Part shown: positions 2,568 to 25,106 of the stretch, one piece after another | How positions within the stretch are numbered: position 1 is the stretch's first letter | Layout: each line of letters begins with the position of its first letter | From: Escherichia coli | GTDB taxonomy: Bacteria > Pseudomonadota > Gammaproteobacteria > Enterobacterales > Enterobacteriaceae | Length of the DNA: 64,000 nucleotides | Assembly: GCF_003334305.1 (NCBI RefSeq) | Contig: NZ_QOWS01000010.1 | Strand: one strand, 5' to 3' | Notes under the pieces: generated by a model | What the model saw: only the letters and a program-made list of their open reading frames with translations | Database searches by the model: none | What the model was told of the DNA's origin: nothing | Made by a program: the position numbers and the translations under genes

Positions 2568-2719
2568 AAGTGTATGCCTGCTTGTTACGGTGGTACTCAC
2601 GGCGCGTTTTAAACGTATCAAAAGTAACAGTTGTTTAACCTTTGACCGCCTGCGCCTGTGCTCGAAAACGCCAGAATGTACTGGCTGTACGCAATAATTG
2701 CAACTGCGATTGTTGTGCT

Positions 2720-3097
2720 TCAGTGCTTTTCTTGCTTTTCATCAATCACCGGAATTCGCCACATATAGAAAAGCAAACAGGCGAGAATTACCAGCAACAT
2801 GATGCGCACCCATGGCATCTGGACGAACCACAGAGAAATGGCAAACGTGAGCAAAATAAGCAAAATCGCCCGCGGTTTGACGCCGCGCGGCATCGCATGA
2901 TGTTTCTGCCAGAAACGTAGATAGCTGCCAAACCATGAGCGGTACAGCAACCAGGCGTGAAAGCGCGGGGAAGAACGGGCAAAGCACCAGGCCGCCAGCA
3001 GGATAAACGGCGTCGTCGGTAATACCGGTAATACCACGCCCAGCGTACCCAGCACTACCGCCAGCCAGCCAATGATGATTAAAATGATTCGTTGCAT
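2720..3097 (-). CDS. ybaN: inner membrane protein, DUF454 family
   Basis: 125-aa hydrophobic ORF; position and sequence match remembered K-12 YbaN. Confidence 0.85.
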
Positions 3098-18816: not shown

Positions 18817-19677
18817 ATGAGTCAGGCGCTAAAAAATTTACTGACATTGTTAAATCTGGAAAAAATTGAGGAAGGACTCTTTCGCGGCCAGAGTGAAGAT
18901 TTAGGTTTACGCCAGGTGTTTGGCGGCCAGGTCGTGGGTCAGGCCTTGTATGCTGCAAAAGAGACCGTCCCTGAAGAGCGGCTGGTACATTCGTTTCACA
19001 GCTACTTTCTTCGCCCTGGCGATAGTAAGAAGCCGATTATTTATGATGTCGAAACGCTGCGTGACGGTAACAGCTTCAGCGCCCGCCGGGTTGCTGCTAT
19101 TCAAAACGGCAAACCGATTTTTTATATGACGGCCTCTTTCCAGGCACCAGAAGCGGGTTTCGAACATCAAAAAACAATGCCGTCCGCGCCAGCGCCTGAT
19201 GGCCTGCCTTCGGAAACGCAAATCGCCCAATCGCTGGCGCACCTGCTGCCGCCAGTGCTTAAAGATAAATTCATCTGCGATCGTCCGCTGGAAGTCCGTC
19301 CGGTGGAGTTTCATAACCCACTGAAAGGTCACGTCGCAGAACCACATCGTCAGGTGTGGATCCGCGCAAATGGTAGCGTGCCGGATGACCTGCGCGTTCA
19401 TCAGTATCTGCTCGGTTACGCTTCTGATCTTAACTTCCTGCCGGTAGCTCTACAGCCGCACGGCATCGGTTTTCTCGAACCGGGGATTCAGATTGCCACC
19501 ATTGACCATTCCATGTGGTTCCATCGCCCGTTTAATTTGAATGAATGGCTGCTGTATAGCGTGGAGAGCACCTCGGCGTCCAGCGCACGCGGCTTTGTGC
19601 GCGGTGAGTTTTATACCCAGGACGGCGTGCTGGTTGCCTCGACCGTTCAGGAAGGGGTGATGCGTAATCACAATTAA
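18817..19677 (+). CDS. tesB: acyl-CoA thioesterase II
   Basis: 286-aa product from ATG 18817 ([30 protein letters not shown]...). Confidence 0.94.
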
Positions 19678-19715
19678 AAAAATAGCCGGAGGTAAAACCG
19701 TCCGGCTATTTTTTG
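19676..19715. terminator. bidirectional intrinsic terminator between convergent tesB and amtB
   Basis: A-run, 9-bp stem atagccgga / tccggctat, then T-run. Confidence 0.75.
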
Positions 19716-19724
19716 CAGTGCTTG

Positions 19725-21011
19725 TTACGCGTTATAGGCATTCTCGCCGTGACTGTTGACATCCAGCCCTTCTCGCTCCTGCTCTTCCGGTACACGCAGA
19801 CCAACCGTCAGATCCGCCAGTTTGTAGCCAATAAATGCCACCACACCGGACCAGACGATCGTAATGGCGATGCTTTCCAGCTGTACCAGCAACTGATGGC
19901 CCATCGTCACACCTTCAGCGAAGCCCACGCCACCCAGCGAACTGGCGGCAAAAATCCCAGTCATGATACAGCCGACAATGCCACAAACGCCGTGCACACC
20001 GAAGACATCGCAGGGATCATCCACCCGCAGCAAGCGTTTGAGCATAGTAACGCCCCACAAGCCCGCCAGACCAGCTACCACGCCGATAATCAACGCGCCG
20101 CCAACCCCAATGTAGCCACACGCTGGCGTCACGCCGACCAGACCGGCAATCGCGCCAGAACACGCTCCCAGCAGAGAAGGCTTACCACGCAGCGCCCATT
20201 CACCGAAGATCCAGCCAAGAATTGCCGCCGCCGTTGCGACCACAGTATTCACAAATGCCAGTGCCGCGATTTCATTCGCCGTGCCCGCTGACCCGGCGTT
20301 AAAGCCAAACCAACCAATATAGAGAATGGCAGTACCGGTGAAGACCATTGGCAGGTTGTGCGGTTTAAACGCCTCTTTGCCGAAGCCCACGCGTTTGCCT
20401 ATCAGATACGCGCCCACCAGACCGGCGATTGCGGCGTTAATATGCACCACCGTGCCACCCGCGAAATCCAGCGCACCGTGAGAAGCCAGCAAACCACCGC
20501 CCCACACCATATGCGCAATCGGAATGTAAGAGAGCGTCAGCCATACCACCACGAAAATCAACACAGCTGAGAAGCGGATTCGTTCCGCCAGCGCCCCAAC
20601 GATCAAGCCGACGGTAATGCAGGCAAACGAGCCCTGAAACGCCACGTGGATATACTGATAAATGCTGCCCATCACCGCCGTCAGTTCGATGTTTTTTAGC
20701 ATCAACCAGTTAATGTTGCCGAAGAAGTTGTTGCCCTCACCAAACGCCAGCGAGTAACCGTAAACCACCCAGAGAATACAGACCAGTGCAAACGTCACCG
20801 TCACCTGCGTCAGCATCGACAGCACGTTTTTGCCGCGAATCAACCCACCGTAAAACAGGGCAATCCCCGGAATAGTCATAAACAGCACCAGCGCAGTACA
20901 AATCATCATAAACGCATTGTCGGCTTTATCGGCCACCGCAGGTGCAGCCATTACCAGTCCCGGCAGCATCGCCAGTGAAGCAAGCCCAGTTTTTATCGTC
21001 GCTATCTTCAT
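19725..21011 (-). CDS. amtB: ammonium transporter
   Basis: 428-aa polytopic membrane ORF MKIATIKTGLASLAMLPGLVMA... Confidence 0.95.
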   Translation of the reverse strand: MKIATIKTGLASLAMLPGLVMAAPAVADKADNAFMMICTALVLFMTIPGIALFYGGLIRGKNVLSMLTQVTVTFALVCILWVVYGYSLAFGEGNNFFGNINWLMLKNIELTAVMGSIYQYIHVAFQGSFACITVGLIVGALAERIRFSAVLIFVVVWLTLSYIPIAHMVWGGGLLASHGALDFAGGTVVHINAAIAGLVGAYLIGKRVGFGKEAFKPHNLPMVFTGTAILYIGWFGFNAGSAGTANEIAALAFVNTVVATAAAILGWIFGEWALRGKPSLLGACSGAIAGLVGVTPACGYIGVGGALIIGVVAGLAGLWGVTMLKRLLRVDDPCDVFGVHGVCGIVGCIMTGIFAASSLGGVGFAEGVTMGHQLLVQLESIAITIVWSGVVAFIGYKLADLTVGLRVPEEQEREGLDVNSHGENAYNA

Positions 21012-21040
21012 TTTTCGTTCCTGTTGCTGTGTGCCAGAGA

Positions 21041-21379
21041 TTACAGCGCCGCTTCGTCGGCTTCGCCGGTACGAATACGAATGACGCGTTGCAATTCAGC
21101 GACGAAGATTTTGCCGTCGCCAATTTTTCCGGTGTAAGCCGCCTTACTGACGATATCGATCACTTCATCGAGTTGGTCATCAGCAATCGCCACATCAATT
21201 TTTACTTTTGGCAGGAAGTTGACGCTGTATTCCGCCCCCCGGTACAGCTCGGCATGCCCTTTCTGACGCCCGAAACCTTTCACTTCGGTGACGGTCAGGC
21301 CCTGAATACCAATGGAAGATAACGCTTCACGAACGTCTTCCAGCTTGAATGGTTTGATTATCACGGTCACCAGCTTCAT
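21041..21379 (-). CDS. glnK: nitrogen regulatory protein PII-2
   Basis: 112-aa product from ATG 21379 (MKLVTVIIKPFKLEDVREALSSIGIQGLTV...); the track ORF is extended upstream. Confidence 0.95.
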   Translation of the reverse strand: MKLVTVIIKPFKLEDVREALSSIGIQGLTVTEVKGFGRQKGHAELYRGAEYSVNFLPKVKIDVAIADDQLDEVIDIVSKAAYTGKIGDGKIFVAELQRVIRIRTGEADEAAL

Positions 21380-21430
21380 AGATCCCCTCCGGTCAGAATT
21401 CGGTAATGGTTCTGCTACACGAAGAAGGTA

Positions 21431-21447
21431 TTGCAAGCGGTGTGCCA
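21431..21447 (-). promoter_or_regulatory. sigma54 (-24/-12) promoter of glnK-amtB
   Basis: Minus strand reads TGGCAC-ACCGC-TTGCA, an exact match to the sigma54 consensus spacing, about 50 nt upstream of the glnK start. Confidence 0.8.
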
Positions 21448-21500
21448 GAAATGAAAAACGAGAAAGAGAGCAGGAAGTTAAGAAGATTGAAAATGAAAAC

Positions 21501-21517
21501 GCACTATGACAGTGCAC
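21501..21517. promoter_or_regulatory. putative NtrC binding site upstream of the glnK promoter
   Basis: gcactatgacagtgcac resembles the NtrC dyad TGCACC-N5-GGTGCA; a second partial copy tgcaccaacg lies near 21533. Confidence 0.5.
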
Positions 21518-21559
21518 AGTGCGTTACATTTTTGCACCAACGATGAAATATTGCGCTAT

Positions 21560-25106
<3,547 letters not shown>

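What the first reader, a model, noticed from the sequence alone, without database searches (positions are those of the whole stretch)
21431..21517. Nitrogen-regulated glnK-amtB control region is intact
An exact sigma54 -24/-12 element (TGGCAC-N5-TTGCA) and an NtrC-like dyad GCAC-N7-GTGC lie upstream of glnK. Expected core regulation, noted so the region is not mistaken for unexplained structure.
Basis: partly seen in the sequence, partly recalled or inferred. Interest (0 to 1): 0.15.

Follow-up and report, generated by a model that had tools for sequence, protein, structure and literature searches.

The report
Known E. coli glnK nitrogen-regulated promoter
This is the well-studied switch that turns on the E. 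coli ammonium-transport genes glnK and amtB when nitrogen runs out; it is present and undamaged here, so it is ordinary.

Summary
Confirmed, and already known. The window is E. coli chromosome. mdlB, glnK and amtB all lie on the minus strand. The 180-bp mdlB-glnK spacer matches K-12 MG1655 except for one common T/A polymorphism at 21486, which lies outside every motif.

TGGCACACCGCTTGCA sits at 21447..21432 (-). It is the only such match in 64 kb (0.10 expected). It is the same sequence, at the same coordinate, as the sigma54 site mapped by ChIP-seq in K-12. It is also listed among known sigma54 promoters.

The dyad GCAC-N7-GTGC sits at 21501..21515. Alone it occurs at chance frequency (2 found, 2.0 expected). 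It is invariant in eight enteric species, and it stays in helical register with the -24 element while the spacer changes length (-87, -97, -108, -117/-118, -129). Published NtrC ChIP-seq and gSELEX peaks fall in this spacer.

The elements read on the minus strand. The enhancer extends beyond 21517: a second, weaker, conserved NtrC-like site lies at 21536..21520.

Side observations. The proximal palindrome plus an invariant T-run also looks like an intrinsic terminator for mdlB; this is untested. A CT-rich stretch at -7..+1 is predicted to sequester the glnK ribosome-binding site on read-through transcripts only, as already published. Interest is low.

The parts
21432..21448 (-). sigma54 core promoter glnKp: CTGGCACACCGCTTGCA, with GG at -24 and GC at -12
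   Evidence: The pattern TGGCAC-N5-TTGCA (21432..21447) has a single match in the window, 0.10 expected. The 17-mer is identical to the K-12 ChIP-seq motif and the gSELEX motif. TGGCA-N6-TTGC is invariant in 8 enteric species. A -24/-12 element precedes glnK in all 18 loci from the genome scan.
21421..21421 (-). Predicted transcription start, about +/-2 nt, giving a 42-nt 5' UTR
   Evidence: Placed 19 bp downstream of the motif centre, by the rule of PMC4591121, which gives 42 bp to the glnK start in K-12. The geometry is the same here. It is a prediction and was not mapped here.
21500..21516 (-).
   Evidence: It matches 10 of 14 consensus positions. TGCAC-N7-GTGC is invariant in 8 species. 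Its distance to the promoter changes in steps of about 10.5 bp. NtrC ChIP-seq and gSELEX peaks lie in this spacer.
21520..21536 (-). Distal, probably weaker, NtrC-like site TGCAAAAATGTAACGCA, centred at about -107; the conserved block runs to 21540
   Evidence: It matches 9 of 14 consensus positions. The block TGGTGCAAAA..AAC is conserved in E. coli, E. albertii, C. koseri, Klebsiella and Enterobacter, and degenerate in Salmonella. Phaseolibacter has the same 17+3+17 layout. It lies outside the finding's coordinates.
21489..21499 (-). T-run TTTTCATTTTC immediately after the proximal site
   Evidence: TTTT directly after GTGC(G/A) is invariant in 8 species. Together with the hairpin it meets the terminator pattern.
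21498..21525 (-). Hairpin AACGCACTGTG-CACTGT-CATAGTGCGTT that overlaps the NtrC sites; a possible mdlB intrinsic terminator
   Evidence: The terminator scan hit it. The RNA folds at -18.8 kcal/mol, z -4.9. 85% of cells pair across 8 species, but covariation is weak: 24 of 500 shuffles reach the observed score. No 3' end data were found.
21449..21488 (-). Pyrimidine-rich looping spacer between enhancer and promoter, variable in sequence and length between species; holds the T/A polymorphism at 21486
   Evidence: Alignments. 14 of the 30 E. albertii differences fall in these 40 bp.
21421..21428 (-). CCTTCTTC at -7..+1: a published anti-Shine-Dalgarno 'insulator' carried only by read-through RNA
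   Evidence: bioRxiv 10.1101/086108. In the native context the ribosome-binding site has P(unpaired) about 0 in read-through RNA and about 0.5 in the sigma54 transcript. It is not conserved outside Escherichia and Enterobacter.
21384..21390 (-). glnK Shine-Dalgarno sequence GGAGGGG
   Evidence: Sequence. GGAG.GG is conserved in all 8 species.
21041..21379 (-). glnK coding sequence (112 aa, PII-2)
   Evidence: ORF list. The translation is an exact match to GLNK_ECOLI. The RefSeq annotation agrees. The 158-aa GTG-started ORF 21041..21517 in the ORF list is a mechanical upstream extension.
19725..21011 (-). amtB coding sequence (428 aa), co-transcribed with glnK
   Evidence: ORF list. K-12 annotation. 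Pfam Ammonium_transp hits the product in related loci.

Best explanation
The region is the sigma54-dependent, NtrC-activated promoter of the E. coli glnK-amtB operon (glnKp), read on the minus strand. RNA polymerase carrying sigma54 binds the -24/-12 element (21448..21432) as a closed complex that cannot open by itself. When nitrogen is limiting, NtrB phosphorylates NtrC. NtrC-P binds the upstream enhancer. The enhancer is a good proximal palindrome at about -87 (21516..21500) and a weaker tandem site at about -107 (21536..21520). NtrC-P then oligomerises and reaches the polymerase by looping the roughly 50 bp of DNA between the proximal site and the -24 element. ATP hydrolysis opens the promoter, and transcription starts near 21421. 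Shown here or in cited papers: the sequences, their identity to K-12, sigma54 occupancy, rpoN and glnG dependence, NtrC binding within this spacer, and conservation with phasing. Inferred: that NtrC contacts exactly these two 17-mers, the exact start site, and the strong/weak assignment. That assignment fits my recollection of Atkinson et al. 2002, which is not held in the library.
For: The exact consensus element is unique in the window and lies 68 nt upstream of the glnK ATG. The spacer is identical to MG1655 apart from one spacer SNP. The region is present in 5424 of 5426 complete E. coli genomes. K-12 sigma54 ChIP-seq gives the same 17-mer at the same coordinate. glnK falls 18.8-fold in an rpoN deletion. 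RpoN and NtrC gSELEX peaks fall in the mdlB/glnK spacer. An NtrC ChIP-seq peak is assigned to glnK-amtB, and glnK mRNA is lost in a glnG deletion. glnKp depends exclusively on NtrC-P. No sigma70-like promoter was found in 20900..21800. In the 8-species alignment only the enhancer block, the core promoter and the ribosome-binding site are conserved. Against E. albertii, 3 of 51 motif positions differ, compared with 27 of the other 129. The proximal site sits at -87, -87, -97, -108, -108, -117, -118 and -129. These are steps of about 10.5 bp, with Monte Carlo p about 0.0007 for four independent length changes. Such steps are expected for an activator that must stay on one face of the helix relative to the promoter. 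More distant taxa also pair a -24/-12 element with upstream NtrC-like palindromes.
Against: The dyad and the 17-mer are not statistically unusual as bare matches. The published NtrC ChIP-seq bin covers -81..-1 from the ATG, which is window 21380..21460. That is over the core promoter and 88 bp downstream of the dyad. The same data set also places the glnA bin 137-169 bp downstream of the classic -108/-140 sites, so the offset looks systematic. No held paper shows a footprint or mutagenesis of these exact 17-mers. EcoCyc listed the promoter as predicted in 2015. The distal site is degenerate in Salmonella. Spacing is not in phase in distant taxa, at -122 and -154.
Confidence: 0.95

Rival explanations
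1. Dual use. The proximal NtrC palindrome, extended in E. coli by pairing with the distal half-site and followed by the invariant T-run, also acts in RNA as the intrinsic terminator of the upstream mdlAB transcript. One sequence would then be both terminator and enhancer, shielding glnK-amtB from read-through.
For: The terminator pattern was hit 35 nt after the mdlB stop on the correct strand. The hairpin folds at -18.8 kcal/mol, z -4.9, with none of 200 shuffles folding as well. All 8 species fold a hairpin of -11 to -24 kcal/mol ending at the T-run. TTTT after the site is invariant, although the NtrC consensus does not require it. mdlB is upstream on the same strand in every enteric locus.
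Against: The scan expects 1.1 such hits in this region by chance. Covariation is weak: 24 of 500 shuffles reach the observed score, which the tool's own notes treat as not significant. The palindrome helix is explained by NtrC symmetry alone. No mdlB or glnK 3' end appears in the held Term-seq supplements. In Escherichia sp. E1V33 an insertion removes the T-run. The T-run could instead serve DNA bending for looping.
Confidence: 0.35
2. The dyad is only a terminator or a chance palindrome, and NtrC acts from somewhere else in the spacer.
For: As a bare match the dyad is at chance frequency. The ChIP-seq bin lies over the core promoter rather than the dyad.
Against: Upstream of the core promoter, no other 17-mer in the spacer scores above 9 of 14. 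The dyad is invariant in 8 species. Its helical phase relative to the -24 element is preserved through four independent length changes, and a terminator has no reason to keep that phase. The ChIP offset is also seen at glnA.
Confidence: 0.03
3. An enhancer-binding protein other than NtrC drives this sigma54 promoter.
For: Recalled, not tested here: E. coli has several sigma54 activators that share the same core promoter type.
Against: glnK mRNA is lost in a glnG deletion and restored by complementation, and NtrC ChIP-seq is enriched 40-fold here. The upstream palindromes match the NtrC consensus.
Confidence: 0.01

Closest known systems
E. coli K-12 glnKp (glnK-amtB promoter)
   Same: The same locus. 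The 180-bp spacer is identical apart from one polymorphic base, including the sigma54 17-mer, both NtrC-like 17-mers, the 5' UTR and the ribosome-binding site.
   Different: Gene-strand T instead of A at window 21486, in the variable spacer. This allele is shared by many E. coli genomes.
E. coli glnAp2
   Same: A sigma54 -24/-12 promoter activated by NtrC-P from tandem upstream palindromes through DNA looping.
   Different: glnAp2 has sites centred at -108 and -140, 32 bp apart, overlapping a sigma70 promoter (glnAp1), plus governor sites. glnKp has sites at about -87 and -107, 20 bp apart, no sigma70 promoter was found by the scan, and it is described as the simpler promoter. The glnAp2 -12 region departs from consensus (TTCGCT), while glnKp is a perfect match.
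E. coli nac and glnHp2 promoters
   Same: NtrC- and sigma54-dependent Ntr promoters. glnK and nac are reported to switch on only on nitrogen starvation, after NtrC has risen.
   Different: glnHp2 and astCp are naturally bound by IHF or ArgR. No such site was looked for systematically here.
CT-rich anti-Shine-Dalgarno insulators in sigma54 promoters (Levy et al., bioRxiv 10.1101/086108)
   Same: glnKp is the founding example. The CCTTCTT stretch centred at -4 is present here, and it is predicted to pair with the native glnK ribosome-binding site on read-through RNA only.
   Different: The published tests used synthetic constructs with a reporter ribosome-binding site. The native-context pairing here is a prediction, and the motif is not conserved in Salmonella, Klebsiella or C. 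koseri.

Membership tests
sigma54 (-24/-12) promoter | GG and GC dinucleotides exactly 10 bp apart within TGGCAC-N5-TTGCA | tested here: met
   A perfect match at 21447..21432 (-), unique in the window. PMC7045595 calls glnKp a perfect match to consensus.
sigma54 (-24/-12) promoter | Correct orientation and a short distance upstream of a gene | tested here: met
   It is on the same strand as glnK, and the predicted start is 42 nt before the ATG.
sigma54 (-24/-12) promoter | sigma54 occupancy and rpoN-dependent expression | tested here: met
   This was not measured on this strain. It rests on published K-12 data for the identical sequence: a ChIP-seq peak, gSELEX and an 18.8-fold drop in an rpoN deletion.
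sigma54 (-24/-12) promoter | Experimentally mapped transcription start about 12 nt downstream of the GC | not testable with these tools
   Only a predicted start is available. EcoCyc status was 'P' (predicted) in PMC4591121.
NtrC (NRI) enhancer | 17-bp dyad resembling TGCACCAnnnTGGTGCA | tested here: met
   The proximal site matches 10 of 14 and the distal site 9 of 14. The consensus is taken from PMC8743547. The match alone is not above chance.
NtrC (NRI) enhancer | Two or more sites, in tandem, upstream of a sigma54 promoter | tested here: met
   Centres lie at about -87 and -107, 20 bp apart. The same layout occurs in other genera.
NtrC (NRI) enhancer | Evolutionary conservation and fixed helical face relative to the promoter | tested here: met
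   The dyad is invariant in 8 species. Spacing changes in steps of about 10.5 bp, p about 0.0007. Phase is not kept in distant taxa.
NtrC (NRI) enhancer | NtrC binding in vivo or in vitro at the locus, and glnG-dependent expression | tested here: met
   Published K-12 data give a ChIP-seq peak with 39.7-fold enrichment, loss of glnK mRNA in a glnG deletion and an NtrC gSELEX peak. Their resolution is the spacer as a whole, not the individual 17-mers.
NtrC (NRI) enhancer | Footprint or mutagenesis on these exact 17-mers | not testable with these tools
   The primary papers (Atkinson 2002, van Heeswijk 1996 and 2013, Reitzer 2001) are not held. A sequence-string search of the library found nothing relevant.
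Intrinsic (Rho-independent) terminator | G+C-containing hairpin directly followed by a U-run, downstream of a stop codon on the same strand | tested here: met
   The pattern was hit at 21525..21498 with tail TTCATTTTC, 35 nt after the mdlB stop. The fold is -18.8 kcal/mol, z -4.9.
Intrinsic (Rho-independent) terminator | Compensatory changes that keep the stem | tested here: inconclusive
   85% of cells pair and 2 pairs change on both sides, but 24 of 500 shuffles reach the same covariation score.
Intrinsic (Rho-independent) terminator | Observed RNA 3' end at the U-run | tested here: inconclusive
   No mdlB or glnK entry appears in the held supplements of the E. coli Term-seq paper PMC7815308. 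Absence there is not informative if mdlAB was poorly expressed.

The most novel reading that the evidence does not exclude
In Enterobacteriaceae one short sequence may do two jobs. As DNA it is the high-affinity NtrC site of the glnK enhancer. As RNA, together with the invariant T-run that follows it, it is the intrinsic terminator of the upstream mdlAB operon. With the anti-Shine-Dalgarno stretch at -7..+1, this would give glnK-amtB two layers of insulation from read-through. NtrC binding could in principle also influence mdlAB termination.
Probability: 0.3. Interest if true: 0.3.

Novelty: already known. Interest (0 to 1): 0.06.

Why it matters
The result matters mainly as housekeeping. It shows that the conspicuous palindromes and pyrimidine tracts in the mdlB-glnK spacer are the textbook glnK-amtB nitrogen switch, intact in this strain, and need no new explanation.

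Two small by-products may interest specialists. First, natural length changes between the NtrC site and the promoter come in whole helical turns across enteric genera. That is comparative support for the face-of-helix constraint seen with synthetic enhancers. Second, the activator site may double as the terminator of the upstream operon.

Tried and rejected
I tried to read the primary and review papers on glnKp: Atkinson et al. 2002 (PMC135341), van Heeswijk et al. 2013 (PMC3973380) and Reitzer & Schneider 2001 (PMC99035). None is held, so curated NtrC site coordinates could not be compared directly.

I searched the paper library for the site sequences as text strings. Only the sigma54 element is printed anywhere.

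The NtrC motif table (Table S3) of PMC8743547 is not among the held supplements.

The degenerate GlnK N-terminus pattern returned only 18 loci from the genome collection and missed Salmonella and Klebsiella. Those were recovered through cluster members and exact-protein look-ups.

An Rfam scan of 19500..22000 found nothing in the promoter region.

I rejected chance co-occurrence, on the grounds of position, conservation and phasing. I rejected the 158-aa GTG-started ORF 21041..21517 and the 65-aa plus-strand ORF 21312..21509 as real genes: they are mechanical ORFs that overlap the known promoter. I rejected a sigma54-like match inside mdlB (TGGCAGCCAGCGTGCG, starting 221 nt upstream of the glnK ATG, about window 21600..21585) because it is a poor match and lies in coding sequence.

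I looked by eye for an IHF-like site in the spacer and saw no convincing match. I did not pursue it.

Full report
**What is in the sequence**

The window is E. coli chromosome. A 351-bp query around the finding matches 5424 of 5426 complete E. coli genomes, annotated mdlB | glnK. In the window the genes run on the minus strand:
- mdlB ends at 21560.
- glnK is 21379..21041.
- amtB is 21011..19725.
- tesB converges on the plus strand.

Read on the gene strand, the 180-bp mdlB-glnK spacer holds these features:
- TGGTGCAAAAATGTAACGCAC
- TG
- TGCACTGTCATAGTGCG
- TTTTCATTTTC
- a pyrimidine-rich spacer
- CTGGCACACCGCTTGCA
- ATACCTTCTTC
- a 42-nt leader that carries GGAGGGG
- ATG

The spacer is identical to MG1655 except at 21486 (gene strand T versus A), in the variable part. 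That polymorphism is common in E. coli. GlnK is identical to GLNK_ECOLI.

**Checking the observation**

TGGCAC-N5-TTGCA is at 21447..21432 (-). It is the only match in 64 kb, with 0.10 expected. GCAC-N7-GTGC is at 21501..21515, but the window holds 2 such matches against 2.0 expected. The full 17-mer matches the NtrC consensus at 10 of 14 positions, a score reached by 35 sites in the window.

The sigma54 element is therefore significant on its own once its position is considered. The dyad is not, and needs other evidence.

**Published data on the identical K-12 sequence**

- Sigma54 ChIP-seq lists peak OS03 with motif CTGGCACACCGCTTGCA. Its centre is 61 bp upstream of the glnK start and the predicted start site is 42 bp upstream. 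This maps exactly onto 21448..21432 and 21421.
- The same sequence heads a table of known sigma54 promoters at -68..-51 from the ATG. glnK falls 18.8-fold in an rpoN deletion.
- gSELEX finds both RpoN holoenzyme and NtrC-P on the mdlB/glnK spacer, with the same RpoN motif.
- NtrC ChIP-seq in nitrogen-starved cells gives a 39.7-fold peak assigned to glnK-amtB. glnK mRNA is not readily detected in a glnG deletion and is restored by complementation.
- glnKp is described as depending exclusively on NtrC-P.

The ChIP-seq bin covers -81..-1 from the ATG and so lies 88 bp downstream of the dyad. The same table also puts the glnA bin 137-169 bp downstream of the classic -108/-140 sites. The offset is therefore a property of that data set and is no argument against the dyad.

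In 2015 EcoCyc listed the glnK promoter as 'predicted'. I could not obtain a mapped start site or a footprint.

**Comparative test**

I collected glnK upstream regions without using the promoter as bait. The species were E. albertii, Salmonella enterica, S. bongori, Citrobacter koseri, Klebsiella pneumoniae, Enterobacter kobei and Enterobacter sp. RIT418. All have mdlB upstream on the same strand.

The 8-species alignment shows a classic footprint. These features are conserved:
- TGCAC-N7-GTGC, followed by TTTT;
- TGGCA-N6-TTGC;
- the ribosome-binding site.

The stretch between enhancer and promoter differs in sequence and length. The distal block TGGTGCAAAA..AAC is conserved everywhere except Salmonella. 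Against E. albertii, 3 of 51 motif positions differ, compared with 27 of the other 129.

The centre of the proximal site lies at these positions relative to the predicted start:

| Species | Position |
|---|---|
| E. coli | -87 |
| E. albertii | -87 |
| C. koseri | -97 |
| Enterobacter kobei | -108 |
| Enterobacter sp. RIT418 | -108 |
| S. enterica | -117 |
| S. bongori | -118 |
| K. pneumoniae | -129 |

These are offsets of 10, 21, 30-31 and 42 bp, that is 1, 2, 3 and 4 turns of 10.5 bp. A Monte Carlo test on four independent length changes gives p about 0.0007. Preserved helical phase is expected of an activator that loops to the promoter. A terminator or a chance palindrome would have no reason to preserve it. 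This is the best evidence obtainable here that the dyad is the working partner of the sigma54 element.

In more distant taxa (Tenebrionibacter, Gilliamella, Frischella, Leminorella, Sutterella) a -24/-12 element always precedes glnK. NtrC-like palindromes lie upstream at other distances and are not in phase with E. coli.

**Mechanism**

Sigma54 holoenzyme sits on 21448..21432 in a closed complex. On nitrogen limitation NtrC-P occupies the proximal site at about -87 and the weaker distal site at about -107. It oligomerises, loops to the polymerase and uses ATP to open the promoter. Transcription of glnK-amtB starts near 21421.

Shown, here or in the cited papers:
- the sequences and their identity to K-12;
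- sigma54 occupancy;
- rpoN and glnG dependence;
- NtrC binding within the spacer;
- conservation and phasing.

Inferred:
- contact with exactly these 17-mers;
- the start site;
- the strong/weak assignment of the two sites. This matches my recollection of Atkinson et al. 2002, which I could not read.

**What else is there**

1. *A terminator-like hairpin.* On the gene strand the enhancer is also flagged as terminator-like: AACGCACTGTG-CACTGT-CATAGTGCGTT followed by TTCATTTTC, 35 nt after the mdlB stop. The RNA folds at -18.8 kcal/mol, z -4.9. Every species folds a hairpin ending at the invariant T-run. Covariation is weak, with 24 of 500 shuffles reaching the observed score. The palindrome helix is explained by NtrC symmetry. 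No 3' end was found in the held Term-seq supplements. I rate a dual role as mdlAB terminator at about one in three.

2. *A published insulator.* CCTTCTTC at -7..+1 is the published anti-Shine-Dalgarno 'insulator' of glnKp. In the native context the ribosome-binding site is predicted fully paired on read-through RNA and about half open on the sigma54 transcript. The stretch is not conserved beyond Escherichia and Enterobacter.

3. *A natural spacing variant.* In Escherichia sp. E1V33 a GC-rich repeat element is inserted right after the proximal site. It replaces the T-run and most of the native spacer, so the site-to-start distance grows by 145 bp and the enhancer moves to about -232.

**Verdict**

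There are two corrections: the elements read on the minus strand, and the enhancer extends to about 21540. The feature is already known and interest is low.

Noticed in passing
window 21498..21525 (-) plus T-run 21489..21499: The NtrC enhancer doubles as a terminator-like hairpin with a U-run, 35 nt after the mdlB stop (-18.8 kcal/mol, z -4.9). TTTT after the site is invariant in 8 enteric species. It may be the mdlAB intrinsic terminator.
   Followed up: partly
It is degenerate in Salmonella.
   Followed up: yes
alignment A3: window, L002, L019, L030, L031, L033, L035, L037: The distance from the proximal NtrC site to the sigma54 promoter differs between enteric genera by 10, 21, 30-31 and 42 bp. 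These are whole helical turns.
   Followed up: yes
window 21421..21428 and 21384..21390 (-): CCTTCTTC just upstream of the start site is predicted to pair with the glnK ribosome-binding site on read-through RNA only. This matches the published glnKp 'insulator'. It is not conserved in Salmonella, Klebsiella or C. koseri.
   Followed up: partly
L010 about 2690..2866 (Escherichia sp. E1V33): A GC-rich repeat element (CCCTCTCCC...GGGAGAGGG type) is inserted between the NtrC sites and the -24 element. It replaces the T-run and most of the native spacer, and the site-to-start distance grows by 145 bp, moving the enhancer to about -232.
   Followed up: partly
window 21486: The only difference from MG1655 in the spacer (gene strand T versus A). 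Both alleles are common among E. coli genomes. It lies in the variable looping spacer.
   Followed up: yes
window 19630..19715 (+): A weak Rfam hit to Thr_leader (29 bits, below the gathering score of 55) lies between the convergent tesB and amtB ends. It is most likely just a shared terminator hairpin.
   Followed up: no
L023 and L028 (E. coli assemblies): Rare E. coli variants touch the motifs. One is a T>A change at the position of window 21511, in the unspecified centre of the proximal site. The other is a C>T change at 21448, the base before TGGCAC. Neither hits a consensus position.
   Followed up: partly
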